From NCBI GenBank assembly GCA_964512835.1, contig CAZELA010000001.1, forward strand, positions 105,372 to 169,371: 64,000 bases of DNA, read 5' to 3'. A model generated the notes under the pieces. It did no database searches, was not told the origin of the DNA, and saw only the letters and a list, made by a program, of their open reading frames with translations. A program made the position numbers and the translations under genes. The DNA comes from an uncultured Candidatus Saccharibacteria bacterium. Its GTDB lineage: Bacteria; Patescibacteriota; Minisyncoccia; Phycocordibacterales; UBA2100. This document shows positions 29,862-45,840 of this stretch, in pieces; position 1 is the first letter of the stretch; each line of letters begins with the position of its first letter.

Positions 29862-30875
29862 CTAGTACTGGTACGGGTACTGCGGGTAGCTCGGGTAGGG
29901 ATTGTATGCGCCGGTCACCCAACGGCTCGCCGTATTGTTCGACTGATTGTTGTCGTAGGCTCGGACAGTGACGGAGAATGTTCCGTCGACTGCGGGTGTG
30001 AAGCGAAGCGTGTTGATCACATGCGCTCCTGCGCCAAGCGACGGTTGCAGTTGTGAGCTGAACACGTACGGCTGTGACGTCGGGATGTTCGCTTCAAACG
30101 TGTACGAACCGGATGCGGTGCCGCCGACGTTCTGAATGTCGAACTGCACGGCAGATACGTCAGACGGTGAGTATGCCGGGCGCGATACGAATGCGCCGGT
30201 GTACGGATCGATCACACCCACTGCAACGACACGGACCGAAAGGTCTGCGGGCGTTACCGGTTTCGGGCTCGAGGATCCGGTATTCGACGTGGTCGGCTTC
30301 GGCTTCGTGACGACCGGAGTTTCTTCATGGGGTGCCGGGGATTCTTCAACAGGAGTCGGCTGCGTAACAACCGGTGCGCCCTTTACGATTTTTACCGCGG
30401 TGTTGCCGGTCGCTTCAGGTCCCGTGGTGCCGGCCGCGCTCGGAATAAAGAGGACCGAGATCTGACTTTGGACCGACGTTGTACCGGTGAGCGTCGGGAG
30501 GATCGATGCGGAGCCTGTTGCGTTACCGAGTGTGTATGCGGCGCCGCAGGGGATCGGGTTACCGTCGACCGAGATTTTGAGTCCGGTCACGCACTGGTAC
30601 AAGACTGCGTACGTACCGCGGCTTGAGGTGTTGTACTTCCACGACACCGTGAACGGCTGTGACGCCGTTGCGGTGGATGGCGCGCTCACGGAAATCTCCT
30701 TTTTTGAAGAGAACATGCCCGAGAACCACGGGGTAGAGAGGTTGATGATATGGAGCAGACCCCAGATCACGATGATGATCAAAATGACGAATCCGATGAT
30801 CGCGAGAATGTTCGCAACCACACCCGGCTTACGTGCGGGTCCTTTCGGTCGAATTTCCGGTGCTGCATCTGCCAT
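29862..30875 (-). CDS. membrane-anchored surface protein with a CARDB-like beta domain and a Tyr/Pro-rich C-terminal tail
   Basis: N-terminal TM; Thr/Pro-rich linker; ...QYPYQY end. Confidence 0.5.
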   Translation of the reverse strand: MADAAPEIRPKGPARKPGVVANILAIIGFVILIIIVIWGLLHIINLSTPWFSGMFSSKKEISVSAPSTATASQPFTVSWKYNTSSRGTYAVLYQCVTGLKISVDGNPIPCGAAYTLGNATGSASILPTLTGTTSVQSQISVLFIPSAAGTTGPEATGNTAVKIVKGAPVVTQPTPVEESPAPHEETPVVTKPKPTTSNTGSSSPKPVTPADLSVRVVAVGVIDPYTGAFVSRPAYSPSDVSAVQFDIQNVGGTASGSYTFEANIPTSQPYVFSSQLQPSLGAGAHVINTLRFTPAVDGTFSVTVRAYDNNQSNNTASRWVTGAYNPYPSYPQYPYQY

Positions 30876-31494: not shown

Positions 31495-32823
31495 CTAGTT
31501 CTGCAGCATGTTGTTCTTTGTCCAATAGTCGTATCGCCATTTGTACGACATGATCGGAAACCGTCGCCCCACCCACGCGAACATGCTGTGATTGTCCATA
31601 TAGAGAGCGTACTTTACATAGTTTGCATCAGTCGAGAGTAGTCGTTCTTCGCCGAGTGCACGACCCACGTAGATCGCGCATACGAGCAAGAACAAAATGC
31701 CTGACTGGATCGGATTCACGACACCTACCGCGTTCAGTACGGGGAAGTACAGGAGCGCCCACTGAAAACATTTTGATACATAGATGGGATGTCTGGTGAA
31801 CGCGAACGGTCCCGTTGTGATGATGCCGCGCATCGAGATGTTTGCTGCGCGGATACCCACGATCGCTTCGCCCCATAAGTGGATGATTGCGAAGAAAATG
31901 ATGAGCGCCGCGACGGCAAAAAGGATCATCGGTTGCGACAGTGTGTGATATGCCCACGCCGGAGTGCCGTTGTAGATCGCATCGGTTTCCGACGCGGGAA
32001 CGTAGCGCACCCATCCGCCGAAGAGCGCATTGTTGATCGGCGGATAGCAGGAGAGGTTGATCGCCCACGCAAACCACGTGCGGTCGACCTTTTTGAGTTC
32101 GGTGCCGATCAAGCGCGACGCAAAAATGTAGCCCGGCAAGATTGATCCGACGATCATGCCGAAGATCGCAAGATCAAGGCGTGAGACGAACGTGACGAAG
32201 TCGCCGGAGATATCGGGCAAACCGAATGCGCGAAGGTAATGGATGTACCATACGATCGCGTAGAAGTTGATCAGCAGGAAAAAGCATCGCAAGAGCCATT
32301 CACGAACGCCGTCAAAGAATATTTTCCATTCGATCTCGCGCACGCGCAGGCGTGCCAACAATCCGATCTGGAATGTGCCGTCGCGCTTTTCGCCGAGGAT
32401 ATATTCGGTCACGTAGATCAGAATGAACGACGCCGGTATAACGAACGTGAGTGTCGGAACAATCGCTTCGAAGAGGCGACGGAGGTTCGTTTGGTTATCG
32501 TACGCAGGGAATAGCCACACGAGAAAAAAGATGAATCCGATACCGACGAGCACTCCGAGGAATTTGGTGACGGTCGATTCGAGAACCTCTGTATGAGTGC
32601 GCTTCGGCCGATCGGCGACCTTCCACGGCGCCCGCATGATCTCGGAGGTGAAGAGGTAGGCGCATGTCAGCAGTGCGATTATGAGTGCGATGTAGACATC
32701 TGACGTTCCTGTCCGGTAGAGGGCCAGAAACACCGCATTGATGATGCCGACGGAAACGATCGGGTCGAACCATCGACCGACCGACATTCGGTAGATTTCC
32801 TGTTTCGTAGGCTGTGCTTCCAT
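31495..32823 (-). CDS. polytopic membrane protein with a C-terminal ICMT/PEMT-like methyltransferase domain
   Basis: GIITTGPFAFTRHPIYVS matches the isoprenylcysteine carboxyl / phospholipid methyltransferase motif; more than 8 TM helices. Confidence 0.5.
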   Translation of the reverse strand: MEAQPTKQEIYRMSVGRWFDPIVSVGIINAVFLALYRTGTSDVYIALIIALLTCAYLFTSEIMRAPWKVADRPKRTHTEVLESTVTKFLGVLVGIGFIFFLVWLFPAYDNQTNLRRLFEAIVPTLTFVIPASFILIYVTEYILGEKRDGTFQIGLLARLRVREIEWKIFFDGVREWLLRCFFLLINFYAIVWYIHYLRAFGLPDISGDFVTFVSRLDLAIFGMIVGSILPGYIFASRLIGTELKKVDRTWFAWAINLSCYPPINNALFGGWVRYVPASETDAIYNGTPAWAYHTLSQPMILFAVAALIIFFAIIHLWGEAIVGIRAANISMRGIITTGPFAFTRHPIYVSKCFQWALLYFPVLNAVGVVNPIQSGILFLLVCAIYVGRALGEERLLSTDANYVKYALYMDNHSMFAWVGRRFPIMSYKWRYDYWTKNNMLQN

Positions 32824-33009: not shown

Positions 33010-34977
33010 ATGGCAGCTCAATCCCGCACGAAGGGAATCGGATTTTCATTTTTGCAGACACTCGGCACGGCGTTCATCGCGCTCGTGCTCTTCGGATTTG
33101 CGATGTTGCTTGTGATGCGCGCGAATGCGCAGTTTTCTATGAATGATTCGCATGGCATCGCGAAACTTTTTACCGCGCGCGCAGACGGCGGAGGCGGCGA
33201 CTCGGGCGGCGGTGGTGACTCAGGTGGTGGAGGAGACAGCGGCGGCGGAGGGGATTCCGGCGGCGGAGGGGATTCCGGCGGAGGCGGCGACTCGGGCGGC
33301 GGCGGTGACTCAGGTGGTGGAGGAGACAGCGGCGGCGGCGACGGCGGCGGTTGTTCAGGCTGTGGCTGCGGCGGCTTCTGCTACCCGCAGTGTCCGGCGG
33401 GAACGACCGGTGTGTATCCCATCTGCATTCCGCAGACATGCCCGGCAGGAACAACCGGCACGTACCCGAACTGCACAACCATTCAGTGTCCGGCGGGAAC
33501 AACCGGCACCTACCCGAATTGCACGACGCTGCATTGTCCTGAAGGAACAACCGGCACGTACCCGAACTGCACGACCATTCAGTGCCCGGCGGGAACCACC
33601 GGTACCTATCCGAACTGCACGACGATCCAATGCCCGGCGGGAACGACGGGAACCTACCCGAACTGCACGACGATCACATGCCCTGCAGGTACAACGGGAA
33701 CGTATCCGAATTGCACACCAAACACGGGATGCATCGACGTGCTGAAGGAAACGTACAACACGCTCGGTCTTCCGATCATGCCGGTTGCACAGTTCTCGTT
33801 TAAGCTCGATGGGGGAACGCAGACCGTGTTCAACAACTCTGCCGGTAACGCACGATTCACCGGCGTCTCGGTCGGTGCACACACCGTAACGGAAACTCCG
33901 GTTGCCGGATGGGCACTTATTTCCACGACGCCGCAGGGCGGCATCGTAAATGTGCTTGCTGGTTCGCAGTGCGTGACGGTTGTATTCAAAAACAAGCAGG
34001 TTATCAACGAATGCCCGGCAGGAACGACAGGCACGTACCCGAACTGCACGACCATTCAGTGCCCGGCGGGAACCACCGGTACCTATCCGAACTGCACGAC
34101 GATCCAATGCCCGGCGGGAACGACGGGAACGTATCCGAATTGTGTTTCTATCCAGTGTCCGTCGGGTACAACGGGAACGTATCCTAATTGCGTCTCGATC
34201 CAATGTCCGGCAGGAACATACGGCACGTACCCGAACTGCATCCAAATCCTGTGCCCGGCCGGGTCAACCGGCACGTACCCGAACTGCTACACGCAGCAGT
34301 GTCCGGCAGGGACGTACGGAACCTATCCGAACTGCTACACGCAGCAGTGTCCGTCGGGAACCACCGGGACGTACCCGAATTGTTACTCGCAGCAGTGCCC
34401 CGCAGGAACCTACGGAACCTACCCGAACTGCGTCCAGATCTTGTGTCCTGCAGGTTCAACGGGAACCTACCCGAACTGCCTCACGCCGCAGGCTCCGTAC
34501 TGCACACTGACCGCAAACCCGACATTCGTTTCGCACGGTCAGAGCTCAACGCTGTTCTGGTCGTCGCAGAATGCGATCAACGCGCAGCTCTCATCGTTCG
34601 GAACGGTCGGTGTGAACGGCTCGACGAACGTATCGCCGTACCAGACGACGACGTACACACTCACCGTGTGGAACAATCAGGGCCAGCAGGCAACCTGCCA
34701 GACGACGGTGCAGTTGAACTATCAGCCGCCGTATAATCCGCCGACCTACTACCCGCCGCAGCCTCCGACGATTTATCCGCCGATCACGTACTACCCGCCG
34801 AGCATTCCCGTTTCAAACATCCCGTACACGGGAACGGGTTCGACGACCGGCAACGTGATCCTCATGAGTCTCATCGTTCTTGCATCAATCTCCGGTGCAT
34901 ACTTGATTCTGTACTCACGGGGCGGTGCACGGAACATGCTTGTCGAAGCGGGCATCCTGCAAACCTCGCGACTCTAG
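33010..34977 (+). CDS. repetitive cell-surface protein: (GGGGDS)x8 linker, 17 copies of a 16-aa CPAGTTGTYPNCTTIQ repeat, and a C-terminal IPYTG sorting signal
   Basis: N-terminal TM/signal; repeats read directly; C-terminal IPYTGTG + hydrophobic helix + YSRGG tail; adjacent to the sortase gene. Confidence 0.8.
   Translation: MAAQSRTKGIGFSFLQTLGTAFIALVLFGFAMLLVMRANAQFSMNDSHGIAKLFTARADGGGGDSGGGGDSGGGGDSGGGGDSGGGGDSGGGGDSGGGGDSGGGGDSGGGDGGGCSGCGCGGFCYPQCPAGTTGVYPICIPQTCPAGTTGTYPNCTTIQCPAGTTGTYPNCTTLHCPEGTTGTYPNCTTIQCPAGTTGTYPNCTTIQCPAGTTGTYPNCTTITCPAGTTGTYPNCTPNTGCIDVLKETYNTLGLPIMPVAQFSFKLDGGTQTVFNNSAGNARFTGVSVGAHTVTETPVAGWALISTTPQGGIVNVLAGSQCVTVVFKNKQVINECPAGTTGTYPNCTTIQCPAGTTGTYPNCTTIQCPAGTTGTYPNCVSIQCPSGTTGTYPNCVSIQCPAGTYGTYPNCIQILCPAGSTGTYPNCYTQQCPAGTYGTYPNCYTQQCPSGTTGTYPNCYSQQCPAGTYGTYPNCVQILCPAGSTGTYPNCLTPQAPYCTLTANPTFVSHGQSSTLFWSSQNAINAQLSSFGTVGVNGSTNVSPYQTTTYTLTVWNNQGQQATCQTTVQLNYQPPYNPPTYYPPQPPTIYPPITYYPPSIPVSNIPYTGTGSTTGNVILMSLIVLASISGAYLILYSRGGARNMLVEAGILQTSRL
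33187..33342 (+). repeat. 18-bp tandem repeat encoding (GGGGDS)n
   Basis: About 8.5 imperfect copies of ggcggNggNggNgaYtcN. Confidence 0.8.
33391..33729 (+). repeat. 48-bp tandem repeat array 1 (7 copies, CPAGTTGTYPNCTTIQ module)
   Basis: In-frame coding repeats. Confidence 0.8.
34012..34491 (+). repeat. 48-bp tandem repeat array 2 (10 copies of the same module, more diverged)
   Basis: In-frame coding repeats. Confidence 0.8.
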
Positions 34978-35044
34978 GCAAACCTGCCGCTTTCCGAAAA
35001 GGGAAGCGGCTTTTGCTTTGAGCGGATCGTCTGCTTGACAGCCT

Positions 35045-35072
35045 TGACAAATGTGTCGTAATGGCTTATAAT
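35045..35072 (+). promoter_or_regulatory. consensus sigma70 promoter TTGACA-16-TATAAT (second TTGACA copy at 35035)
   Basis: ccTTGACAaatgtgtcgtaatggctTATAATatggctATG; the first ATG overlaps the -10, so the transcript is probably leaderless from ATG 35079. Confidence 0.6.
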
Positions 35073-35822
35073 ATGGCTATGAATAAGGGTTTTCACCCCA
35101 AAGAGACAGGAAATAAGCCCCCGTTCGCCGTGTACCTCTCGGTGACGGTGATTCTGTTTGTGCTCACCCTTTCCGTTGCCGACTCCATCGGTCTCGTGCC
35201 CGACTACATCGACGGTACTCAGTCAGAACACATGGCAGTATCGGATTCACAGTCGAATTCTCCGGATGGTGATTGGAGCGAATTCGATCAGTCAGTCTCG
35301 GTTTCAAATCTGCCTGAGCTCGGCGAAGCGGTGTCGGCACCGACTCCCGTCGTAGAGCAGCAGCACTCAGCGGCGCTTTCGAAGCCGACGAAGATCCTGA
35401 TCCCGGCGATCGATATGAATCTTCCGGTACAGAATCCGTCGACCCGCGATCTCTCTGCGCTCGATACGCTGTTGCAGAAAGGTCCGGCTCGATACGTCGA
35501 TTCCGCAAAGCTTAACGAGCGGGGAAACGTCATCATCTTTGCTCACTCGTCGCATCTTCCCGTCGTACACAACCAGATGTACAAGGCGTTCAATCGTGTG
35601 CCTGAGCTCGTAAAGGGTGACACCATCACGCTCGTGGGAGACGACGGTCAAAAGTATCTCTACAGCGTGACATCGGTCCGAAAGGCGGATGCAAATGATG
35701 CAACGATCGACCTGTCTCCGCTCCACGGCACAAAGCTCACACTCGTCACGTGCGACACGCTCACGGGCAAAAGCGCACGCTTCATCTTAGAAGCAGACTT
35801 TATCGGCACCGTCGACCTGTAA
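35061..35822 (+). CDS. sortase (transpeptidase), membrane-anchored
   Basis: N-terminal TM; IFAHSSH His motif; TLVTCDTL catalytic Cys motif near the C-terminus; KILIPAIDMNLPV start of the beta-barrel; likely true start 35079 (MNKGF). Confidence 0.8.
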   Translation: MAYNMAMNKGFHPKETGNKPPFAVYLSVTVILFVLTLSVADSIGLVPDYIDGTQSEHMAVSDSQSNSPDGDWSEFDQSVSVSNLPELGEAVSAPTPVVEQQHSAALSKPTKILIPAIDMNLPVQNPSTRDLSALDTLLQKGPARYVDSAKLNERGNVIIFAHSSHLPVVHNQMYKAFNRVPELVKGDTITLVGDDGQKYLYSVTSVRKADANDATIDLSPLHGTKLTLVTCDTLTGKSARFILEADFIGTVDL

Positions 35823-35840
35823 TTACGTTTAAAAAAATAT

Positions 35841-36467
35841 ATGAAAAATCTCACCATCGCATTCGTAACCGTTTTCGCGCTCGCACTTCCTGCAATTGCA
35901 GATGCCGCATCGTATCCGACGGGTGGCTCGTACCGGACCGGTGTCTCGGCTCAGACCGGGGTACCGTGCTACTACGGCGGCTCTGCATTCACCGGCAGTT
36001 CCTATGCGACCGGAGTCTCGTATGACACAGGGGATTCGTATTCAACGGGATCGTCCTATCAGACCGGCTACTCCTATCCGACCGGTATGTCTGCCGGCCC
36101 GGTGGGCACGTCGTACACAACTGGTGTCTCTGCCGGCCGTGTCGGCACATCGTATGCGGTCGGTGTTTCGTACCCGACCGGATACTCCATGGCAACCGGC
36201 TCATCGGTTCCGACCGGATACTCGAGCGCAACATCACACCCGAAGGGAACGAAGTACGGTACACCAAACTACGCACAGTATTCGTATCCGAACTACTACA
36301 ACGAAACGCCTACGTACATGCAGGACTACACCGGCTACATGTATAACTCGTACTACCCGCAGCAGAATCAGTACACGGAGACTGTGGGTGGCATGGGCTA
36401 CGCGTACATGAACACCGCGCACTACGCATACGATCAGGTGACTGGTGTCTACTACATCAGCTACTAA
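35841..36467 (+). CDS. secreted Tyr/Gly/Ser/Thr-rich low-complexity protein
   Basis: Signal peptide; (S/T)Y.TG(V/Y)S repeats; Y-rich C-terminus; 18 nt after the sortase stop. Confidence 0.55.
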   Translation: MKNLTIAFVTVFALALPAIADAASYPTGGSYRTGVSAQTGVPCYYGGSAFTGSSYATGVSYDTGDSYSTGSSYQTGYSYPTGMSAGPVGTSYTTGVSAGRVGTSYAVGVSYPTGYSMATGSSVPTGYSSATSHPKGTKYGTPNYAQYSYPNYYNETPTYMQDYTGYMYNSYYPQQNQYTETVGGMGYAYMNTAHYAYDQVTGVYYISY

Positions 36468-36539
36468 GCAAAACGTTTGACGCATCCACGTAAGCGATGT
36501 ATTGCTTACGGCGGGTCAACAAGCAGAAAGGGGGCAATC

Positions 36540-37007
36540 ATGCCCGATCCGGATACCTCGGCTCAACCGGGGAAGGTGAAGCTATTCTTTCGCGGGTGCC
36601 GCACCGTCATTGGTGCGGTCTCGTGGGTGATTCCGTTTGTCATCATGGGAGGTGCGTACTACCTCTTCCCGGCGCTACGAGTCAACATTACATTCGACGG
36701 CAACGTGCCGCACGAAGTCGCGTGGGGACTCCTGGCATCACTTGCCTCCGTCGGTGTTTGGCTCGGCTACGAGATGTGGTTTGCGGTCAGTCGCAAGACA
36801 TCGGTCGGCCAACTCCAGGCTGACGGACTCATCAGCACCTTCTTTGCTATCGTGCTGACGGGCATCGGCGTACGCTGGGCGACACTTGGCACCTTGCCAT
36901 ATTGGTTCGTGCTGCCGTGGATCGGCACACTCATCGATGCGCTCGGCTCCGGGTTCCTCGCCATCAACAACGCCGCCCAGAAGCCGATCATCCAGCAGGA
37001 CCGCTAG
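36540..37007 (+). CDS. hypothetical membrane protein (4 TM)
   Basis: AAAGGGGG RBS before ATG 36540; start trimmed. Confidence 0.55.
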   Translation: MPDPDTSAQPGKVKLFFRGCRTVIGAVSWVIPFVIMGGAYYLFPALRVNITFDGNVPHEVAWGLLASLASVGVWLGYEMWFAVSRKTSVGQLQADGLISTFFAIVLTGIGVRWATLGTLPYWFVLPWIGTLIDALGSGFLAINNAAQKPIIQQDR

Positions 37008-37030
37008 GGTCGATCACGCACTTTTACGAA

Positions 37031-37072
37031 TAAGCGCCGCAGACAAAGCGGCGCTTATTTATTTGCTATTTT
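37031..37072 (+). terminator. rho-independent terminator
   Basis: TAAGCGCCGC-agacaaa-GCGGCGCTTA followed by TTTATTTGCTATTTTC. Confidence 0.7.
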
Positions 37073-37128: not shown

Positions 37129-37188
37129 AGCGGTTAATCAACCGTCCCGCCAATTCCGGTCGGGTCCATGCCAAACAGGAGTTATCCC

Positions 37189-38109
37189 ATGGCAATCGAA
37201 GTCATCGCACGCGGCAAGATCCACGCCGGCAAGAAAAGCGGCAACAACTTCCGCTTTCAGCCCGGCAGGACGCAGGGTATCGGCAAAACCGCCAATCAGA
37301 CCCTGTTCCGCTCGCTGACGTACGTTCGCGGCACGATCGCCGGGACCGACGACGGCTCGTTCAAGTACGGTGCGGTGATGGGACCCAACCAGGTGGTGTC
37401 GGGATCGGGTAATCACGCGATCCTCGATCCCAACTCCAAGGTCATCCCGGTCGTTGCGAGCAACGACACGCAGCTCGTGCCGATCCGGAAGTTCTACACG
37501 CCGGAGGAGCTCAAGAAGCCGCATCACCAGCGCGTCGCCAAGACGTTCATCGACTGGGCATCGTTCCAGTCGCAGCAGAACGGCGAGGCCAGCCTCGTGA
37601 AGTATCTCGGCAACAACACGGTGAACGTCGAGATCTGGACCGGCCTGTTCGAGAAGATGACCGAGGAAATGTACCAGCTCATCTTCGGGCTGGAGCATGG
37701 ATCGATCAACTACTCGGGCAGCAAGACTGTCGCCAGGGCCAAGAAGAAGTTGGTCGTCGACGAAACTGCGCCGGAAGGCGAGGCGATCGTCGAGGCGAAG
37801 GCGAAGTTCTCGGCCAACCTCGTGCTCGAGGATCACGCGACCGTCGTCAACAACAACGACGTCCCGCTCTGGTCCGTGCGTACGTGGGAGATCGAGTACT
37901 CGCCCGGCGACAGCGCGATCGTGCTGGTGCGTCACTTCGACGCGTTCTACGTCGTCGAAGTGAAGAAGGGCGAAGAGCTCGTCATCACCAAGTACACCGA
38001 CAAGGACGCCGCGGTCTGGAAGCGTCGCTTCCTCAAGGACTGGTCGGCGGCGCTCGCGGCGGAACGCACGAAGGCGGAAATCGACGCCAAGCTCGCTTCG
38101 GCAGCCTGA
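37189..38109 (+). CDS. hypothetical protein, 306 aa, no signal peptide, very high GC3 / expression-optimised codons
   Basis: AGGAG RBS; strong promoter and terminator; the stop is embedded in CTGATCTTTCAACTG. Confidence 0.65.
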   Translation: MAIEVIARGKIHAGKKSGNNFRFQPGRTQGIGKTANQTLFRSLTYVRGTIAGTDDGSFKYGAVMGPNQVVSGSGNHAILDPNSKVIPVVASNDTQLVPIRKFYTPEELKKPHHQRVAKTFIDWASFQSQQNGEASLVKYLGNNTVNVEIWTGLFEKMTEEMYQLIFGLEHGSINYSGSKTVARAKKKLVVDETAPEGEAIVEAKAKFSANLVLEDHATVVNNNDVPLWSVRTWEIEYSPGDSAIVLVRHFDAFYVVEVKKGEELVITKYTDKDAAVWKRRFLKDWSAALAAERTKAEIDAKLASAA

Positions 38110-38133
38110 TCTTTCAACTGGGTCTATGACCCG

Positions 38134-38172
38134 CGCGCGGCAGTGTGAACTGCCGCGCGTTTTCTATTTTTT
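38134..38172 (+). terminator. rho-independent terminator of the hairpin-TTTTCTAT type
   Basis: CGCGCGGCAG-tgtgaa-CTGCCGCGCG followed by TTTTCTATTTTTT. Confidence 0.75.
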
Positions 38173-38190
38173 GTAAGCTATCATGAATGC

Positions 38191-40323
38191 ATGTCCGCAG
38201 AGGGCCCTCAGGAACCCAAACAAAGCTGGGAGAAAGTTCGATTACTGAAAACGAATGCGGGGCTGCTTTGGTATCGCACAAAAACGGGCGAAGTGGTCGT
38301 TCTCGACGATGCCGCAGAAATGGAGCGTGACCGACAGAACGATGAACCGGGCACTCCGCCGCAGGAAGGTTATCCGGAATTTTCCGGGCGTATCGGTACC
38401 GAGGAGTTGCCGGTTACCGACGCAAATGAGATTGAGCAGAAACGCGCCGACCTCCATACGCTCGTCAATAACCTCGTCGATATTTCTACCGACTTGCGTA
38501 CGAACCTGGTGGAAGAGATCGTTGCCGCGGAGGACGACGGCGACCTCGAAGCAATTCGGCAGGGTATTGATCAATTGCTGAAAGACAAGCGCGATGCAGC
38601 GCGAGCGGCAGGTTCGGCTGCAGGACCCGCCGGTGGTGCGGCAGGGGGAGCAGCGGGCGCGGGTGCACAGACTGTGGACCAGCTGTACGACGAAACGAAG
38701 CAGAAGCACAAAGATAAGACCGCGCGTAAGCGCGCGATGCAGCGTGCGGAGCGCGATGCGATAGCGGAGCTCGATGCCGAAGAATCGGCTGCGAATCCGC
38801 TTGTGCCGAAGACTGACGACGAGGTCTTTACCGATATAGAAAAAGCAGAGGCCGATAGACTCTCCAAGCGGGATCTTGAGGATCGTGCAAAGAAAAAGGC
38901 AAAAGATGCATTCGATGCCGCGAAGGCCGCGGCACGCGTGCAGGCTGAGCAGGACGCTCAAGCAGAGAATGCGGCGAAGGTTGCGGCTGAGTTAGCGTTG
39001 GACAAGGATTACTACAACGCCCGGTTCGATAACCTCCGGCTCCACGGCATCATAGATGACACGAACGCAGTTTTTGCGCAGGACGAGGTCGCGAACGCGC
39101 AGACGAGCGAAGCGCTACGCGAGCGGTTTGATACGGAGCTCCAGGGATTAGAGTCGCGACTGCCCGAAAACCCTGCGCCGCCGGATCATGGGATCAACGC
39201 TGTCCGCAATGATACGGAATTTGCACAAATGACCGTCGAAGCGATACGCAACATCGAAGCGGTGATCGCGGTGGGCGGCAATGCAAACAGTTTGTACCAG
39301 CGGTACCGCAAACGTCTCCGTGCAGGCGATTTGAAACAGTTCGATACGAGTCTTGCACGACGCGAGAAACTGACGGGCAAACAGTTCGGTATTGATTACC
39401 GCACTATGACTCCGGCAGAGCGATTGCGAATCATGAATCCGCCCCCTGGCTTTGCAAACAGATACACGGCTAACGGTCGGATTGATCGCATCTGGATGGC
39501 GCACGATTCTGCGAAATATAAAGATCTCGTGCCGTTTTCGATGGAGGAGATACGAACGGACGATAAGAAAAAGGTCCTCTACGACCGCTTTATGAAAGCG
39601 ATCGAATACGATAATTCGCTCAAAGCCACAGTCGAGGCGGGGCAACCGTTTGATGATGCACAGCGGCAACTGCAGGAGTATTCGCAGTATGAGTTCACGT
39701 ATCAGTACAAACGTGCCGAAGTGTTGAGCGAGATGTTCACGCCGGAATTCACGAAAAAGCTCATTTATCAGAATGAATTTGTGAACTCGATCGCGGTCAT
39801 GTACGGCGTCGAGAAAACAGCCGCATTTTTGAAAGACGACGTGTTTCGTATCGCGGTTGAAGATCTCGGAACCTTTGATCGGCTCGCGCTTGCGGCCTCG
39901 CGCCTCCAGCATCTGGGTAGTGGACGATTCACAGCGATGAGTCGGGGTGAAGAGCAATTCGACATGGCTGAGATTTTTGAAACGCGGCTTCGCGATGCGG
40001 ATATACAAACCGCCATTCAGAAGGAGGCTGCGACCGGTACGAAGACGGTGGAGATGCTACCGCCCGCAAAAGAAATGAAAGACGAATTTTCTGCGGCGAA
40101 CCTGCAGAAATATTTCGACCGCGACAAAATGAAGGCAAAGATCGGCGACCGGGGCTGGGACAAGTGGACTGCGGCGGAGCGCGCAGACTTTAAGCGCAAG
40201 TGGGAGCCGGAAGAGGTCGTTAAGCGACGCGAACACAAAGAAGCGGGGCTCTACGCGCAGCTGAAGGCGGTTCTTATGGAGTCACTGTTCGGAGAGCAAA
40301 AGAAGCAGGTGAAGGCTCACTAA
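38191..40323 (+). CDS. large acidic hypothetical protein (710 aa), coiled-coil rich, Ala/Gly-rich linker
   Basis: Long ORF with protein-like composition; no TM; no recognised domain. Confidence 0.6.
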   Translation: MSAEGPQEPKQSWEKVRLLKTNAGLLWYRTKTGEVVVLDDAAEMERDRQNDEPGTPPQEGYPEFSGRIGTEELPVTDANEIEQKRADLHTLVNNLVDISTDLRTNLVEEIVAAEDDGDLEAIRQGIDQLLKDKRDAARAAGSAAGPAGGAAGGAAGAGAQTVDQLYDETKQKHKDKTARKRAMQRAERDAIAELDAEESAANPLVPKTDDEVFTDIEKAEADRLSKRDLEDRAKKKAKDAFDAAKAAARVQAEQDAQAENAAKVAAELALDKDYYNARFDNLRLHGIIDDTNAVFAQDEVANAQTSEALRERFDTELQGLESRLPENPAPPDHGINAVRNDTEFAQMTVEAIRNIEAVIAVGGNANSLYQRYRKRLRAGDLKQFDTSLARREKLTGKQFGIDYRTMTPAERLRIMNPPPGFANRYTANGRIDRIWMAHDSAKYKDLVPFSMEEIRTDDKKKVLYDRFMKAIEYDNSLKATVEAGQPFDDAQRQLQEYSQYEFTYQYKRAEVLSEMFTPEFTKKLIYQNEFVNSIAVMYGVEKTAAFLKDDVFRIAVEDLGTFDRLALAASRLQHLGSGRFTAMSRGEEQFDMAEIFETRLRDADIQTAIQKEAATGTKTVEMLPPAKEMKDEFSAANLQKYFDRDKMKAKIGDRGWDKWTAAERADFKRKWEPEEVVKRREHKEAGLYAQLKAVLMESLFGEQKKQVKAH

Positions 40324-40325
40324 GT

Positions 40326-40538
40326 ATGGACGAAAACGACATCAAGGAAATCGTACAGAAATTCGAAGCGACCGTACCGCCGGGGGATGATGAGGCGGCG
40401 CGCGTGTTTTTTGAAGAAGTGTTCCCGAATTTCTCGCAGGATTTGAAAGACGCGTTTTTGCGCGAGGCACTCGTGAGCGCCATCGAGCAATCCGCCGAAG
40501 AACTCATGGCGGGGCGAAAGGGTGATTCCGAGGCTTGA
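40326..40538 (+). CDS. small acidic hypothetical protein (70 aa), translationally coupled
   Basis: ATG lies 2 nt after the upstream TAA; its stop TGA lies inside the downstream TTGACA. Confidence 0.45.
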   Translation: MDENDIKEIVQKFEATVPPGDDEAARVFFEEVFPNFSQDLKDAFLREALVSAIEQSAEELMAGRKGDSEA

Positions 40539-40626
40539 CAGAGCCGTATTTTTATGAATTAATATTGCCGGCATCCGATCGGAGGATCGGTATAGTCGTA
40601 GTACGAACAAACCTGCGGAGGGCACC

Positions 40627-41508
40627 ATGGCGGACATCGCCGCGGCGCTTGCCGCTTTCACGCTCGCTCTATGGTCGCTCGGTATCGTGCTCATGAGCAC
40701 GGTGTATCAAGAGACCGGTGTACTGCTTGCGGCACTCGGGTTTCTGACCGGAGTGATGCACGCGATACTGCAATGGCGATCGGCGAACTCGGAATCGCAA
40801 CTTCAACCTGAACGTACAGAAAGGAATGAAACCATGACTGCACCCGAAGCTTCGGCTGCACAGCCGGTCCACATTCACCCGATGGTGGGGAAGGAGAGTC
40901 ACTTCGTCGCGTGGGTCGGATTCTTTTCGACCCTGTTGGTGAGCTTGCTCATCTTCTCGATCCTGACCGGCAACTGGATCCCGCCGACGTTCGCCATCGG
41001 TGACGCGTCGGTCGGCCCGGAGACGTACATCCCGATCATGGCGATGATCGTCTATCACTACCAGGTCAAGGTCTCGCTCGAACGTCCGGACACGCTCTTC
41101 TACGCGTGGCTGGATCTCATCGGCTCCGTGCTTCCGTTCGCGATCGCATTCATCGCGATCATGTCGTGGTTCCCGGCGGTCCGTTGGATCTTGGAGACCA
41201 TGCGGCTCTGGATCACGCCGTACACCACGCTGACACTGGTGACCGCCGGCACGTATCTCATCCTCTCGGCATGGGACGTGTTCTGGAATCACTGGCGTCG
41301 GTCGCGTGTGTTTGGGCATGGCGGCGGCGCGAGCAATGCGTTCATCGATGATGTCATCATCGGGCAGGGGGTCTCGCGCAAGCGCGTCATGCCGCTCGAG
41401 ATCATCTGGGAACCGCAGCACTTCGTGCAGCAGCCCGACGGCACGCTTCGTCGCGTGCAGCCCGAGCTGATCGAGCAGCAGACCGGTCCGGCGCCGGAGA
41501 CCCACTAA
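40627..41508 (+). CDS. hypothetical polytopic membrane protein (high GC3)
   Basis: GGAGGG RBS; 6-7 TM; flanked by the split halves of the 5757 hairpin. Confidence 0.6.
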   Translation: MADIAAALAAFTLALWSLGIVLMSTVYQETGVLLAALGFLTGVMHAILQWRSANSESQLQPERTERNETMTAPEASAAQPVHIHPMVGKESHFVAWVGFFSTLLVSLLIFSILTGNWIPPTFAIGDASVGPETYIPIMAMIVYHYQVKVSLERPDTLFYAWLDLIGSVLPFAIAFIAIMSWFPAVRWILETMRLWITPYTTLTLVTAGTYLILSAWDVFWNHWRRSRVFGHGGGASNAFIDDVIIGQGVSRKRVMPLEIIWEPQHFVQQPDGTLRRVQPELIEQQTGPAPETH

Positions 41509-41536
41509 ATACGGCTCTACGACGAGCTCTTTCGAC

Positions 41537-41572
41537 CCGGCGGCACAGCGATGTGCCGCCGGTTTTCTATTT
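41537..41572 (+). terminator. rho-independent terminator of the hairpin-TTTTCTAT type, abutting a TTGACAAA promoter
   Basis: CCGGCGGCACA-gcga-TGTGCCGCCGG followed by TTTTCTATTTGACAAAAG. Confidence 0.75.
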
Positions 41573-41599
41573 GACAAAAGTGATTTTATATGATACTTT
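41571..41599 (+). promoter_or_regulatory. promoter TTGACAAA-N17-TACTTT
   Basis: TTGACAaaagtgattttatatgaTACTTT. Confidence 0.45.
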
Positions 41600-41659
41600 A
41601 TCTGCGGTCTCTTTCCGTACAGGAGAGGGTTTTACAGTCACACAAACATGGGAGGCGTA

Positions 41660-42301
41660 ATGGCCGCTCCGGTATCACCGGGATCGCGATGGCGTATCCC
41701 GATCGTCACACCGCAGCCGTATGTCGTGCCACCTCGGCCCGTGCATGCAGCTGCTCCGGTAGTTTCCAACCAACAGCCTTCCTCGCACGAAGATGCGCGT
41801 ATGCGCGGCTTCGAGGACGGCAGGGCATATCAACGAAATGGAGGTCAGAATATGTCTGCGAAGGCCGACGACCACGGACATCACGGCAGCGGTCCGCCCG
41901 AGGGGGTAAAAAAGGCCCTCTGGTGGATCGGGGTGATCCTGATTGCGTTCCTGTTGTTCAATTGGTTCACGACCGCCTGGGATCGGTTCACCGATCCTGT
42001 CGGCTTCCGCGCCAATGAACAGCAGCGCGTGATCGACGATCTGAAGGATCGTCTGCGCGCGTACCAAAGCGGCGATGTCGGTCCGAGCCCTCGCGGTGGC
42101 ACGGGCGGCAACATCTCGCGGCTCGGAAACAACAATGCGCCTCGTCAACCGACGGCACAGGAGATCTGGGATCGTACGTTCCATCGCACGACCAGTACCT
42201 GCGCCCCGTGCGATCAGACCAGGGGATGGAATTACATCCAGGACCCCGAAACCTGTCAGTGCGATGCGGCTCGGTGGCGGCCTGGTCCGCCCCCGCGCTA
42301 A
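41660..42301 (+). CDS. single-pass membrane protein with a C-terminal Cys4 domain (CAPCDQTRGWNYIQDPETCQCD), paralog A
   Basis: GGGAGG RBS before ATG 41660; central TM helix; the last 34 aa are identical to 42482..42979. Confidence 0.6.
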   Translation: MAAPVSPGSRWRIPIVTPQPYVVPPRPVHAAAPVVSNQQPSSHEDARMRGFEDGRAYQRNGGQNMSAKADDHGHHGSGPPEGVKKALWWIGVILIAFLLFNWFTTAWDRFTDPVGFRANEQQRVIDDLKDRLRAYQSGDVGPSPRGGTGGNISRLGNNNAPRQPTAQEIWDRTFHRTTSTCAPCDQTRGWNYIQDPETCQCDAARWRPGPPPR

Positions 42302-42342
42302 GTGATCTTTCGTCCTCAAATCGAAACAATTGCGGGGACATG

Positions 42343-42375
42343 CAGACGGCTAGCGATAGCCGTCTGTTTCTTTTG
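42343..42375 (+). terminator. rho-independent terminator
   Basis: CAGACGGCTA-gcga-TAGCCGTCTG followed by TTTCTTTTG. Confidence 0.7.
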
Positions 42376-42381
42376 TAGCCC

Positions 42382-42409
42382 TTGACAAAAAGGGTAAATA
42401 TGGTAATAT
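42382..42409 (+). promoter_or_regulatory. promoter TTGACAAA-N16-TGGTAATAT
   Basis: TTGACAaaaagggtaaataTGGTAATAT. Confidence 0.55.
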
Positions 42410-42481
42410 TCTCATTAGAAGGGAGGTACCATTCGGTGCTTTCCGCTTCACATCACACAATTACAGAAAGAGGAGTGGCCA

Positions 42482-42979: not shown

Positions 42980-43019
42980 GTGATCTTTCGTCCTCAAATC
43001 GAAACAATTGCGGGGACAT

Positions 43020-43052: not shown

Positions 43053-43059
43053 GTAGCCC

Positions 43060-43537: not shown

Positions 43538-43552
43538 TCTTTCACTACCGGA

Positions 43553-44340: not shown

Positions 44341-45840
44341 ATGACAAATGTATCGAAAAACATGCTCTTTGCCTTCTTGGTCGCCGTAAGTGCAACAGTG
44401 CTTTCATTGGGTGCATTTGCCACGACTGTTCACGCAGCTGACTTCGACGGAGGTTCCTTCGACGGAGGCGGCTGGTACGACGCCGGCTCATTCGGCGGCG
44501 GTGGTTTCTACGACGCGGGTTCGTACTCCGGTTCCGACTGGTACGATGCCGGTTCGTACAACAATGGCGGTTTCTACGACGCGGGTTCGTACAGCGGCGA
44601 TTTCTACGACGCTGGCTCACAGAACAGCGGTTGGTATGACGCCGGTTCACCGAATGGCGGCTGGTACGATGCCTCGACCGGTTACTGGGAGACTGACTCG
44701 TACAATCCGGGCTACTATGAAAAGGATTCGTACAACCCTGGGTATTATGAGACTGACTCCTACAATCCTGGTTACTACGAAACTGATTCGTACAACCCTG
44801 GTACCTATCAGACTGATTCGTACGTAAGCTCGTACATGGATCAGTACGCAGCAGGCAACCCGATCATGTCGGGCGGCAGCTACGGAGGTGGTTCGTACGG
44901 CGGTGGCTACACCACCGGCGGTGGGTACAGCATGCCGAGCATCAGCACCGGCGGCTGCACGACCTGCCACTCACAGAGCTACCCGAAGCCTGTTCCGACT
45001 CCGGTCTGCACAACCTGCAATCATCCAGTCCCGACTCCGACCTGCACGACCTGCGGCGGATCAAGCGTGACTAACACGAACATGTGGATCGATAACTCGA
45101 TCATCGACAACTCGATCAACGGTTCGTTCAACACCACGATCAAGGACAGCTACAACACGACCATGCTTACTCCGGTCGTACCGCAGCAGCCGATCGTGTA
45201 CACCCAGCCGGCACCGTACTGTGTGATCACCTTGCAGAATGCGGGTGCATACACGGCACAGGCAACGCTCGTATGGTCCTCGACGAATGCACAGTCCGCG
45301 TACATTACGCAGGTGGGTTCTGTAGCTCCGAACGGCACTCGAGTTGTTACCGGCTTCGCGAATCAGATGTACTCGCTCACGGTTACCGGTCAGGGCGGCA
45401 CCTACACGTGCAATACCCAGCCGTACACCCCGACGTACATCCCGCAGGCTCCGATCACACCGTCTGTCTCGCTCACGCAGATCCCGTACACGGGTCTCGC
45501 ACTGAGCCCGATGGCACAGGCGATGTACTGGCTCGCGCTCCTCTCGGTCGCAGCAGCAGGTGGTTACTTGCTCGTCTACTACAAGGGAGGCGCACTTGCT
45601 CTCGCAGGTGCAATGAACCGCCTGACTGCGCAGGCAGGCCGACAGAATCACTTCGTCGTCTCTGAACAGGAGACCGAGGAAGTGATTACTCCGGAAGCAG
45701 TTGAGACCGAAGAGGTCGCAGCTCCGACCGTAGACGCAATGAGCTTCCTCCCTGCGATGCAGGAAATGAAGACCCGAGATGTCATGTCGGTCATGCACTC
45801 GGAAGACGGAACCCCGCGACTCGTCATCGCACGCGCGTAA
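44341..45840 (+). CDS. secreted repeat protein with an IPYTG sorting-signal-like segment, a TM helix and an about 80-aa C-terminal tail
   Basis: Signal peptide; (F/W)YDAGS and DSYNPGYYET repeats; Cys/Pro/Thr spacer (CTTC x3); a domain alignable to the C-terminal domain of 33010..34977; TQIPYTGLALSP + TM + YYKGG. Confidence 0.75.
   Translation: MTNVSKNMLFAFLVAVSATVLSLGAFATTVHAADFDGGSFDGGGWYDAGSFGGGGFYDAGSYSGSDWYDAGSYNNGGFYDAGSYSGDFYDAGSQNSGWYDAGSPNGGWYDASTGYWETDSYNPGYYEKDSYNPGYYETDSYNPGYYETDSYNPGTYQTDSYVSSYMDQYAAGNPIMSGGSYGGGSYGGGYTTGGGYSMPSISTGGCTTCHSQSYPKPVPTPVCTTCNHPVPTPTCTTCGGSSVTNTNMWIDNSIIDNSINGSFNTTIKDSYNTTMLTPVVPQQPIVYTQPAPYCVITLQNAGAYTAQATLVWSSTNAQSAYITQVGSVAPNGTRVVTGFANQMYSLTVTGQGGTYTCNTQPYTPTYIPQAPITPSVSLTQIPYTGLALSPMAQAMYWLALLSVAAAGGYLLVYYKGGALALAGAMNRLTAQAGRQNHFVVSEQETEEVITPEAVETEEVAAPTVDAMSFLPAMQEMKTRDVMSVMHSEDGTPRLVIARA
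44452..44821 (+). repeat. in-frame tandem repeats (about 21-24 bp YDAGS units, then 30-bp DSYNPGYYET units)
   Basis: Read directly from the sequence and its translation. Confidence 0.7.

What the first reader, a model, noticed from the sequence alone, without database searches (positions are those of the whole stretch)
33010..36467. Sortase locus with non-LPXTG (IPYTG) substrates and no recognisable pilin/adhesin homologs
The protein from 35061..35822 has the sortase signature: an N-terminal membrane anchor, the His motif 'IFAHSSH', and the catalytic Cys motif 'TLVTCDTL' close to the C-terminus.

The 655-aa protein encoded immediately upstream ends in '...NIPYTGTGSTTGNVILMSLIVLASISGAYLILYSRGG'. 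That is the pentapeptide + hydrophobic helix + basic tail layout of a cell-wall sorting signal, but with IPYTG in place of LPXTG.

A second protein (44341..45840) carries 'TQIPYTGLALSPMAQAMYWLALLSVAAAGGYLLVYYKGG'. It shares an about 70-aa domain directly before the motif (PYC.(L/I)T......(F/V)WSS.NA.SA.....G.V..G.......YTLTV.....Q..(C/Y).).

Downstream of the sortase is a Tyr/Gly/Ser-rich secreted protein with no motif. None of these proteins resembles a characterised pilin, MSCRAMM or S-layer protein.

The arrangement suggests a dedicated surface-display or polymerisation system with its own substrate motif.
Basis: partly seen in the sequence, partly recalled or inferred. Interest (0 to 1): 0.8.

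Follow-up and report, generated by a model that had tools for sequence, protein, structure and literature searches.

The report
CPR sortase with IPYTG sorting signal
An uncultured ultra-small bacterium (Kaiserbacteria, Candidate Phyla Radiation) carries a real sortase that sits next to surface proteins with a lineage-wide, previously undescribed IPYTG anchoring signal, and one of them unusually keeps a conserved tail inside the cell.

Summary
ORF 35061-35822 is a genuine sortase: Pfam PF04203 scores 63.8 bits, His162/Cys231/Arg240 are invariant, and the model has a sortase fold. It fits none of the curated classes A-F/GN.

Both IPYTG proteins exist. Each has an N-terminal signal peptide and a single TM helix after the motif.

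The motif is far from chance. In 81 related stretches, IPYTG occurs 63 times and 62 are followed by a TM helix, always on the sortase strand. No canonical LPXTG+TM was seen.

This is not an accessory island. The order GyrB – membrane protein – sortase – variable genes – xPYTG protein – ThrRS – DnaE is conserved across Kaiserbacteria and more distant Paceibacterota, where the motif is VPYTG or TPYTG.

The signal extends well beyond the pentapeptide: (S/T)Q-IPYTG-FDFGPxGN, then the TM helix, then YLxVYY(K/R)GG.

The core substrate (44341-45840) carries about 80 further cytoplasmic residues that end in a conserved TxDSM…PRIVIxR-COOH. That is atypical for a sorting signal.

The ectodomains are almost lysine-free, which argues against pilin-type polymerisation. 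No pilin or MSCRAMM fold was found.

The most likely function is sortase-mediated covalent anchoring to the cell envelope. This is a new variant of a known kind, and its biochemistry is untested.

The parts
35061..35822 (+). Sortase. It has an N-terminal TM anchor (aa 22-40), a roughly 65-aa low-confidence stalk carrying conserved VPDYID and LPELG, and a catalytic domain from about aa 106 to 253. Catalytic codons: His162 at 35544-35546, Cys231 at 35751-35753, Arg240 at 35778-35780. The true start is probably ATG 35079.
   Evidence: Pfam PF04203 at 63.8 bits. The triad is invariant in 23 homologs. AF2 model plus Foldseek hits to class A/C/E sortases at E about 1e-9. TM helix from hydropathy. 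Stalk motifs.
33010..34977 (+). Type A substrate, 655 aa. In order:
- signal/anchor at aa 18-36;
- GGGGDS repeats at 33186-33338;
- two blocks of 16-aa CPAGTTGTYPNC repeats at 33388-33716 and 34006-34491;
- an unassigned central domain at 33715-34044;
- an Ig-like pre-motif domain at about 34492-34719;
- a PPxYYPP linker;
- IPYTG at 34819-34833;
- the TM helix at 34855-34911;
- the tail YSRGGARNMLVEAGILQTSRL.
   Evidence: ORF and sequence. Tandem repeats. Ig-like domain pLDDT 94-97. Hydropathy. Homologs with the same tail lie directly upstream of the sortase in L002, L003, L004, L050, L076 and L083.
34986..35072 (+). Hairpin terminator after type A (34986-35010), followed by a perfect sigma-70-type promoter TTGACA-17-TATAAT (35044-35072) in front of the sortase.
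   Evidence: sequence.
35841..36467 (+). Secreted Y/T/G/S-rich short-repeat protein. It starts 18 nt after the sortase stop, carries no sorting motif and is probably in the sortase operon. A low-complexity secreted protein is conserved at this position in 29 loci.
36477..37060 (+). A 176-aa (probably about 155-aa) multi-pass membrane protein that closes the putative sortase operon, followed by a hairpin terminator at 37028-37060.
   Evidence: Its cluster (c26) is found in 5 loci.
44341..45840 (+). Type B core substrate, 499 aa. In order:
- signal peptide;
- G/Y/D/S-rich and Cys-rich regions;
- an Ig-like pre-motif domain;
- SLTQ-IPYTG at 45481-45495;
- the TM helix at 45520-45576, followed by YYKGGA;
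- an acidic cytoplasmic linker of about 60 aa;
- a conserved C-terminal motif, TRDVMSVMHSEDGTPRLVIARA, at 45766-45837.
   Evidence: An ortholog lies downstream of the sortase in 26 of 30 loci that have at least 9 kb of downstream sequence.
29862..30875 (-). Conserved 337-aa type II membrane protein. It has an N-terminal TM helix, an Ig-like domain, a weakly CARDB-like domain and a Y/P-rich C-terminus. It is transcribed divergently from the sortase region and lies next to the sortase in most related loci.
   Evidence: Cluster of 73 members. Conservation profile. CARDB at E 0.063 only.
31495..32823 (-). A 442-aa multi-pass membrane protein with an ICMT/PEMT-type methyltransferase signature (RHPxY ... 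EE..L) at its C-terminus. It is part of the accessory insertion that also carries type A.
   Evidence: Pfam ICMT at 19.1 bits, below the cutoff of 24. It co-occurs with extra IPYTG genes in 7 loci.

Best explanation
This is the core cell-envelope sortase system of a Kaiserbacteria / Paceibacterota (CPR) bacterium.

**The enzyme.** It is a membrane-anchored extracytoplasmic Cys transpeptidase with the triad His162/Cys231/Arg240. It belongs to an unclassified, CPR-specific sortase clade and is nearest to class E in catalytic-residue spacing.

**The signal.** The sortase recognises a lineage-specific extended sorting signal: (S/T)Q-[IV]PYTG-x3-GPxGN, then one TM helix, then YLxxY[YS][KR]GG.

**The reaction (inferred by analogy with all characterised sortases).** The enzyme cleaves between Thr and Gly and forms a thioacyl intermediate. 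It then transfers the Lys-poor, S/T/G/Y-rich ectodomain to an amine acceptor. The most probable acceptor is the peptidoglycan precursor, so the ectodomain ends up covalently displayed on the wall.

**The substrates.** There are two kinds:
- a core, single-copy, syntenic protein (type B, 44341-45840);
- accessory modular proteins (type A, 33010-34977), built from Cys-repeat and Ig-like modules, that share the same signal.

After cleavage of type B, a fragment stays in the membrane. It consists of GFDFGPxGN, the TM helix and a conserved cytoplasmic tail ending in PRIVIxR.

**Shown:** the sortase identity, the conservation of the signal, the topology and the synteny.
**Inferred:** cleavage at T|G, the identity of the acceptor, and any role for the remnant.
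For: **Sortase identity**
- Pfam Sortase at 63.8 bits.
- His, Cys and Arg are invariant in 23 homologs.
- The AF2 catalytic domain matches solved class A, C and E sortases at E 6e-10 to 1e-8.
- A profile of the family hits B. anthracis SrtA (2kw8) at E 1.3e-8 and the sortase entry 5go5/5go6 at E about 1e-5.
- His-to-Cys spacing is 69 and Cys-to-Arg spacing is 9. This matches SrtE1 His251/Cys320/Arg329 (PMC5148588).

**Substrate link**
- 62 of 63 IPYTG occurrences near these sortases are followed by a TM helix, all on the sortase strand. No LPXTG+TM alternative is present.
- 26 of 30 loci with enough downstream sequence have the type B gene.
- 4 of 4 VPYTG/TPYTG proteins sampled without prior knowledge of their context lie in the same GyrB – membrane protein – sortase – ... 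– xPYTG – ThrRS backbone. One of these sortases was compared and is only 43% identical.
- Of the best 147 family representatives, 109 carry [IVLM]PYTG before a TM helix.

**Topology and composition**
- Signal peptide plus a single TM helix after the motif.
- Type A has a classical short tail and nearly reaches the LPXTG_anchor model: 13.1 bits against 15.9.
- Wall anchoring rather than polymerisation: ectodomains are 0.4% Lys, and 25 of 63 have none.
- Peptidoglycan is likely present. The window encodes a PG_binding_1 protein and an SLT-like protein.
Against: - There is no biochemical evidence. Cleavage at T|G is inferred only by analogy.
- Adjacency of the sortase and type B could reflect conserved core gene order rather than function.
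- A 60-380 aa conserved cytoplasmic extension after the TM helix is not a feature of known sorting signals. The residues after TG (FDFGPxGN) are also far more conserved than in known signals. Either could mean the module has a role that does not involve cleavage.
- Curated LPXTG-anchor models do not reach their cutoffs.
- The acceptor is unknown. The peptidoglycan chemistry of these organisms is not known, and only about 10 % of the genome was visible.
Confidence: 0.65

Rival explanations
1. Processing or signalling device rather than simple anchoring. Sortase cleavage splits the bitopic type B protein into two parts. One is a displayed or released ectodomain. The other is a membrane-retained fragment whose conserved cytoplasmic tail (TxDSM...PRIVIxR) then acts inside the cell, for example by reporting envelope assembly or by recruiting a partner.
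For: - The extreme C-terminus is conserved across orthologs, and the motif is specific to this family. All 39 ORF-terminal P[RKQ][ILV][IVL][IVL]xR motifs in the loci belong to xPYTG proteins.
- Other lineages replace it with other conserved cytoplasmic ends (FIxSQINRxR) or with 150-380 aa cytoplasmic domains.
- The P' side residues that would remain on the remnant (GFDFGPxGN) are strongly conserved.
- Own knowledge: the membrane-retained C-peptides of streptococcal sortase substrates are sensed by a two-component system.
Against: - No cytoplasmic partner has been identified.
- Type A and several family members have only short tails, so the tail is not required for the signal itself.
- Tail conservation could instead serve membrane retention or targeting before cleavage.
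Confidence: 0.15
2. The xPYTG + TM module is a conserved juxtamembrane and transmembrane region of receptor-like bitopic proteins and is never cut. The sortase lies nearby only because the core gene order is conserved, and its real substrates are elsewhere in the genome.
For: - The whole PheST–GyrB ... ThrRS–DnaE region is syntenic, so neighbourhood alone is weak evidence.
- The long conserved cytoplasmic tails are atypical for sorting signals.
- The LPXTG-anchor HMMs score below their cutoffs.
Against: - The module has every element of a sorting signal, [ILV]PxTG, a hydrophobic helix and then K/R, in the correct topology.
- Accessory type A genes with classical short tails are inserted directly beside the sortase.
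- No alternative LPXTG-like + TM candidate occurs in about 1.26 Mb of neighbourhoods.
- The intervening genes vary while the sortase and the xPYTG gene persist.
Confidence: 0.12
3. Pilus or fibre polymerisation, class C-like. The sortase joins IPYTG proteins head-to-tail through a lysine on the next subunit.
For: - IPxTG-type motifs are typical of pilin subunits in streptococci (own knowledge).
- Foldseek ranks class C sortases among the top hits.
- The substrates are modular Ig-like and repeat proteins.
Against: - 25 of 63 ectodomains have no lysine at all, and the mean is 0.4 %.
- No conserved YPKN-type motif is present.
- No CnaA/CnaB or SpaA fold or HMM hit was found; SpaA reaches only E 0.2.
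- There is a single sortase per locus, and the class C model scores 23.7 against a cutoff of 160.
Confidence: 0.06

Closest known systems
Class E sortases of Actinobacteria (e.g. Streptomyces coelicolor SrtE1 with LAXTG chaplins; PMC5148588)
   Same: - Housekeeping-type enzyme with an N-terminal TM anchor and a long stalk.
- His-Cys-Arg triad with the same spacings, 69 and 9 residues.
- Best-scoring NCBIfam class model.
- Dedicated to a non-canonical variant of the pentapeptide.
- A Tyr aligns with the GHY tyrosine of a solved sortase (5go6; molecule named only 'sortase' / 'putative secreted protein') in the HMMER alignment.
   Different: - It scores 32 bits against a class E cutoff of 160.
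- The signal keeps Pro at P4 and fixes Ile at P5 and Tyr at P3 (IPYTG, not LAXTG).
- The organism is a CPR bacterium, not an actinobacterium.
- The substrates are unrelated to chaplins.
- The signal extends across the membrane into a conserved cytoplasmic part.
Class A housekeeping sortases with LPXTG cell-wall sorting signals (S. aureus / B. anthracis SrtA)
   Same: - Same fold and triad.
- Best sequence match in the PDB is B. anthracis SrtA, 2kw8, at E 1.3e-8.
- Tripartite signal of motif, helix and basic residues.
- Presumed lipid II acceptor.
   Different: - No class A HMM membership.
- The pentapeptide is invariant IPYTG with conserved flanks.
- Only a handful of substrates were seen.
- Type B has 60-110 further cytoplasmic residues.
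- The LPXTG_anchor and Gram_pos_anchor models are below their cutoffs.
Class C pilin sortases with IPQTG/VPxTG-type pilin signals (own knowledge)
   Same: - Ile or Val at the first motif position.
- Genes for the enzyme and a substrate are adjacent.
- Similar Foldseek scores.
   Different: - The substrates are nearly Lys-free.
- No pilin motif is conserved, and no CnaB/SpaA domain was detected.
- The class C model scores 23.7 against a cutoff of 160.
- No DPW-type lid motif was seen.
Dedicated sorting-enzyme/target pairs with family-specific C-terminal domains (class GN 'marine' sortase and its target; archaeosortase A with the PGF-CTERM S-layer glycoprotein; own knowledge)
   Same: - A lineage-specific processing enzyme paired with a few proteins that carry a conserved, family-specific motif + TM + basic module.
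- One target is a core envelope protein.
   Different: - The enzyme here is an ordinary sortase-fold protein, not an exosortase or archaeosortase.
- TIGR03784 scores 26.8 against a cutoff of 158.
- The signal resembles LPXTG.

Membership tests
Sortase superfamily (PF04203) | Significant match to the sortase domain model | tested here: met
   63.8 bits against a cutoff of 26.6, E 1.7e-17, residues 112-246.
Sortase superfamily (PF04203) | Catalytic His, Cys (TLxTC) and Arg conserved | tested here: met
   H162 (FAHSS), C231 (TLVTCD) and R240 are invariant in 23 homologs.
Sortase superfamily (PF04203) | Eight-stranded beta-barrel sortase fold | tested here: met
   AF2 model, with 10-residue block means of pLDDT 59-94 across the catalytic domain. 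Foldseek finds 127 PDB matches at E <= 1e-3, and all 50 listed matches are sortases.
Sortase superfamily (PF04203) | Transpeptidase activity on a sorting signal | not testable with these tools
   Needs a peptide cleavage or transpeptidation assay.
Sortase class A/B/C/D/E/F/GN (NCBIfam class models) | Score above the curated class cutoff | tested here: not met
   Class E 32.4 against 160; F 27.1 against 166; GN 26.8 against 158; D 26.1 against 165; C 23.7 against 160. Class A and class B models are not listed at E <= 0.01.
Class E sortase | LAXTG substrates (Ala at P4) | tested here: not met
   Neighbouring candidate substrates carry IPYTG, VPYTG or TPYTG, always with Pro.
Class C (pilin) sortase system | Substrates with a pilin-motif lysine and CnaA/CnaB-type domains | tested here: not met
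   25 of 63 ectodomains lack Lys. No conserved YPK motif. No SpaA or Cna hit; the best is E 0.2.
LPXTG cell-wall anchor domain (TIGR01167 / PF00746) | Score above the curated cutoff of the anchor model | tested here: not met
   Type A tail: TIGR01167 at 13.1 bits against 15.9. Type B: PF00746 at 7.5 bits against 20.
LPXTG cell-wall anchor domain (TIGR01167 / PF00746) | Tripartite layout: xPxTG, about 20 hydrophobic residues, then basic residues, on a secreted protein | tested here: met
   Signal peptide, then IPYTG, then the helix, then SRGG or YKGG. The same layout is seen in 62 related proteins.
LPXTG cell-wall anchor domain (TIGR01167 / PF00746) | Signal located at the extreme C-terminus with a short charged tail | tested here: inconclusive
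   Met for type A, with 17 residues after SRGG. Not met for type B, where about 80 residues follow the helix and there is a conserved C-terminal motif.

The most novel reading that the evidence does not exclude
The xPYTG module is a new kind of trans-membrane sorting domain. The sortase reads not just a pentapeptide but a roughly 50-residue unit. That unit spans the outer juxtamembrane segment (IPYTG-FDFGPxGN), the helix, and an inner YYKGG segment. Recognition would involve the enzyme's own conserved TM-proximal VPDYID and LPxLG stalk motifs.

Cleavage of the core type B protein would then produce two functional halves. One is a wall-linked envelope protein. The other is a membrane fragment whose conserved cytoplasmic C-terminus (PRIVIxR, FIxSQINRxR, or whole domains in other lineages) couples surface assembly to an intracellular process. 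That would be sortase-dependent transmembrane signalling or scaffolding, built into the core genome of a large part of the CPR.
Probability: 0.2. Interest if true: 0.75.

Novelty: new variant of a known kind. Interest (0 to 1): 0.55.

Why it matters
CPR/Patescibacteria are a large, almost uncultured part of bacterial diversity, and their envelope and host-attachment biology is poorly understood. A sortase family is known to be common in them (PMC6744442). No paper in the searchable library describes its substrates or its motif.

This work defines four things:
- a concrete, testable recognition sequence (SLTQ-IPYTG-FDFGPxGN);
- a core substrate family of thousands of clusters that current HMM libraries and gene callers miss or truncate;
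- a conserved locus architecture;
- an unusual cytoplasmic extension.

Together these give a handle for identifying the major covalently anchored surface proteins of these organisms. They could also yield a sortase with new specificity for protein engineering.

Tried and rejected
- **Class assignment by HMM, PDB profile and fold search.** All classes score similarly low or equal, so no class could be assigned.
- **A SpaA/CnaB-like central domain in type A (aa 236-345), my own expectation from the sequence pattern.** Pfam SpaA reaches only E 0.2. phmmer against the PDB gives only chance hits. AF2 models this region at pLDDT about 30. The idea is not supported.
- **Full-length type A structure.** Mean pLDDT is 50.9. 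Only the pre-motif Ig-like domain is usable, and it matches generic SoxY/PKD/Ig folds at E >= 5e-3.
- **Word-indexed homolog search with the type B C-terminus.** It found only 9 proteins, mostly truncated gene calls. The exhaustive HMM search was needed.
- **Function of the genes between the sortase and type B (37168-44172).** Pfam gave only weak, below-cutoff VEGF_C hits for two of them, and PHROGs gave nothing.
- **A conserved lysine in the neighbouring 337-aa membrane protein as a possible acceptor.** K80 is present in only 50-70 % of homologs, so the idea was dropped.
- **The C-terminal PRIVIxR motif as a general tag on other proteins.** It occurs only in xPYTG proteins.
- **Genome-wide enrichment.** It could not be done. 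Only the 64-kb window and flanks of 10 kb or less around homologs were available.

Full report
**1. Observation**

- ORF 33010-34977 (655 aa) ends in NIPYTG, then a hydrophobic helix, then YSRGGARNMLVEAGILQTSRL.
- ORF 35061-35822 (253 aa) carries IFAHSSH and TLVTCDTL.
- ORF 35841-36467 (208 aa) is a signal-peptide protein with 17 % Tyr, 13 % Thr, 13 % Gly and 12 % Ser, and it has no motif.
- ORF 44341-45840 (499 aa) carries TQIPYTG, then a helix, then YYKGG.

The two IPYTG proteins share 34 % identity over 157 residues that cover the pre-motif domain, the linker, the motif and the helix (E 8e-14).

A hydropathy scan finds exactly two hydrophobic segments in each substrate, an N-terminal signal and the helix after IPYTG. 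The sortase has one N-terminal helix. The motif and the catalytic domain therefore lie on the same, outer side of the membrane.

**2. The enzyme**

- Pfam Sortase (PF04203) matches residues 112-246 at 63.8 bits, against a cutoff of 26.6.
- In an alignment of 23 homologs, His162, Cys231 and Arg240 are invariant.
- An AF2 model has a confident catalytic domain. Foldseek matches solved sortases of classes A, C and E almost equally, at E 6e-10 to 1e-8.
- A family profile finds B. anthracis SrtA (2kw8, E 1.3e-8), the sortase entry 5go5/5go6, and class C and class D entries with weaker scores.
- Every NCBIfam class model falls far below its cutoff. The best is class E, at 32 bits against 160.
- The His-to-Cys and Cys-to-Arg spacings are 69 and 9, the same as in SrtE1 His251/Cys320/Arg329 (PMC5148588).

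I therefore file it as a true sortase of an unclassified clade, nearest to class E in architecture.

**3. Who carries it**

The sortase has 937 database relatives. The two that carry an organism name are both Candidatus Kaiserbacteria. A scan of one genome per species returned 80 loci, all from Kaiserbacteria, Paceibacterota or Parcubacteria MAGs, i.e. the Candidate Phyla Radiation.

**4. The motif is a family property, not a coincidence**

- The window plus the 80 loci give 2.52 million six-frame residues. IPYTG occurs 63 times in them.
- 62 of these are followed by an uncharged helix, and the other is truncated by a locus end. All are on the sortase strand.
- No other [ILVMF]PxTG pentapeptide is followed by a helix more than once, and there is no canonical LPXTG + TM.
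- The consensus over 61 signals is xPYVSL(S/T)Q-IPYTG-FDxGxxGNAxYW-helix-YLxVYYxGG. Conservation therefore extends well beyond the pentapeptide on both sides.
- An exhaustive HMM search with the C-terminal 200 residues of type B found 4860 clusters (at 50 % identity) with E <= 1e-3, and 561 with E <= 1e-30.
- Among the best 147 of these, the motif before a helix is IPYTG in 92, VPYTG in 12, LPYTG in 4 and MPYTG in 1. The 35 without a motif are mostly giant multi-Ig proteins that share only the Ig-like domain.

**5. Genomic architecture**

Clustering all ORFs of the loci shows a conserved backbone:

PheS/PheT – GyrB – a roughly 340-aa type II membrane protein on the opposite strand (window 29862-30875) – sortase – a secreted low-complexity repeat protein – a variable set of small or unknown genes – the type B xPYTG protein – ThrRS – DnaE.

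- Type B is present downstream of the sortase in 26 of 30 loci that extend at least 9 kb.
- I looked up four VPYTG/TPYTG proteins without knowing their context (P0157, P0217, P0165, P0135). All four lie in the same backbone, next to a sortase. The one sortase I compared is 43 % identical to the window's.
- The 655-aa type A gene and an ICMT-type membrane methyltransferase-like gene (31495-32823) form an insertion between the membrane protein and the sortase. This insertion is found only in a few close relatives: L002, L004, L050, L076 and L083.

The 'locus' is thus a core-genome feature with accessory additions, not a mobile island.

**6. Transcription signals**

- A 10-bp-stem hairpin followed by a T-tract sits right after type A, at 34986-35010.
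- A perfect TTGACA-17-TATAAT promoter lies at 35044-35072.
- The next terminator-like hairpin of comparable stem length follows the 176-aa membrane protein gene, at 37028-37060.

The likely operon is therefore sortase, then the repeat protein, then the small membrane protein. Type A is a separate transcript.

The -10 box overlaps ATG 35061, while several homologs begin at MNKGFH (ATG 35079). This suggests a leaderless or near-leaderless mRNA.

**7. What the substrates are**

Type A is modular. In order it contains:
- GGGGDS repeats;
- two arrays of a 16-residue two-cysteine repeat, CPAGTTGTYPNC;
- a central domain that I could not assign;
- an Ig-like domain, the only part modelled confidently (pLDDT 94-97), which resembles SoxY/PKD/Ig sandwiches only weakly, with a best E of 5e-3;
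- a PPxYYPP linker and the signal.

Relatives swap the passenger modules but keep the last roughly 150 residues. No Pfam or NCBIfam family matches either substrate. SpaA reaches E 0.2, which is not significant.

The ectodomains have an extreme composition. Lys is 0.4 %, Glu 1.0 % and Arg 1.2 %, against 6.4, 7.7 and 5.9 % in housekeeping proteins of the same loci. Tyr, Ser, Thr and Gly are each 11-12 %. 25 of 63 ectodomains contain no lysine at all. This makes lysine-dependent pilin polymerisation very unlikely.

**8. The unusual part**

In type B the signal is not C-terminal. After the helix and YYKGGA come 60-110 poorly conserved, often acidic residues. These are followed by a conserved extreme C-terminus, TxD(S/A)M......G..PRIVIxR(S/N/A)-COOH.
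- All 39 ORF-terminal matches to this motif in the loci belong to xPYTG proteins.
- Other lineages end instead in D.FI.SQINR.R, or carry 150-380-residue cytoplasmic domains.
- Some members, including type A, have ordinary short tails.

Known sorting signals end in a short basic tail (established knowledge). A conserved intracellular extension is not part of that definition. If the sortase cuts at T|G, a fragment consisting of G-FDFGPxGN, the helix and the tail would remain in the membrane.

**9. Mechanism**

The best-supported reading is covalent surface anchoring by a housekeeping-type sortase with a lineage-specific extended signal.
- The acceptor is most probably a peptidoglycan precursor. 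The window encodes a PG_binding_1 protein and an SLT-like protein.
- **Shown:** enzyme identity, signal conservation, topology and synteny.
- **Inferred:** cleavage, the acceptor, and the fate of the remnant.

Three rivals remain:
- processing or signalling through the retained tail;
- an uncleaved receptor-like module whose proximity to the sortase reflects core synteny only;
- pilus-like polymerisation, which is the least likely.

**10. Novelty**

A sortase family is already known to be widespread in CPR (PMC6744442). Full-text searches for IPYTG and VPYTG, and for sortase combined with Parcubacteria, Patescibacteria or CPR, found no description of this signal or of these substrates.

Curated anchor models miss them: TIGR01167 scores 13.1 against 15.9, and PF00746 scores 7.5 against 20. 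Public gene calls truncate both substrates.

This is a new variant of a known kind of system. The chemistry is almost certainly ordinary sortase chemistry. The signal, the substrate family and the cytoplasmic extension are new.

Noticed in passing
window 35044-35081: A perfect sigma-70 consensus promoter (TTGACA-17-TATAAT, 12 of 12 positions) overlaps the first ATG of the sortase ORF. Several homologs start at the ATG at 35079, about 7 nt after the -10 box. This suggests a leaderless sortase mRNA.
   Followed up: partly
window 35193-35213 and 35310-35324 (sortase aa 45-51 and 84-88): The sortase stalk carries two conserved motifs outside the catalytic domain. VPxY[ILV]D sits just after the TM helix in 116 of 120 homologs. 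LPxLG, a look-alike of a sorting pentapeptide, occurs in 105 of 120. These could be a lid or pseudo-substrate, or a contact site for the substrate's juxtamembrane segment.
   Followed up: partly
xPYTG ectodomains in window 33010-34818, 44341-45480 and in loci L001-L080: The ectodomains show extreme depletion of Lys (0.4 %), Glu (1.0 %) and Arg (1.2 %). Tyr, Ser, Thr and Gly are each 11-12 %. 25 of 63 ectodomains have no lysine.
   Followed up: yes
window 33388-33716 and 34006-34491: There are about 20 copies of a 16-residue two-cysteine repeat (C-P-A-G-T-T-G-T-Y-P-N-C-x4). The same repeat occurs in many otherwise unrelated hypothetical proteins from metagenomes. It matches no Pfam family.
   Followed up: partly
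window 31495-32823 (-): A 442-aa multi-pass membrane protein carries an ICMT/PEMT-type methyltransferase signature, though Pfam scores it below the cutoff. In 7 loci it co-occurs with additional IPYTG genes, mostly short-tailed.
   Followed up: partly
window 29862-30875 (-): A 337-aa type II membrane protein has an Ig-like domain, a weakly CARDB-like domain and a Y/P-rich C-terminus. It lies next to the sortase in most related loci and in distant Paceibacterota. Its function is unknown.
   Followed up: partly
window 42188-42409 and 42866-43087: A 222-nt direct repeat (97 % identity) forms the shared 3' ends of two small Cys-rich secreted protein genes, 41648-42301 and 42482-42979. Both proteins end in the identical sequence CAPCDQTRGWNYIQDPETCQCDAARWRPGPPPR.
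   Followed up: partly
L084-L086 (identical sortase) and P0121: Public gene calls truncate both substrates. Type A is called as a 178-aa or 291-aa C-terminal fragment, and type B as a 157-aa fragment. The full-length proteins are therefore absent from the protein collection.
   Followed up: partly
window 37168-40538: Three cytoplasmic-looking genes (313 aa, 710 aa and 70 aa) recur between the sortase and type B in a subset of loci (clusters c25, c17 and c12). They have no Pfam or PHROGs match, and NCBIfam was tried only for the 313-aa one.
   Followed up: partly
window 35841-36467 and cluster 8 in 29 loci: The gene immediately after the sortase always encodes a signal-peptide protein made of short repeats of roughly six residues, for example SYxTGx or AVEIAH. 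The composition differs widely between lineages.
   Followed up: partly
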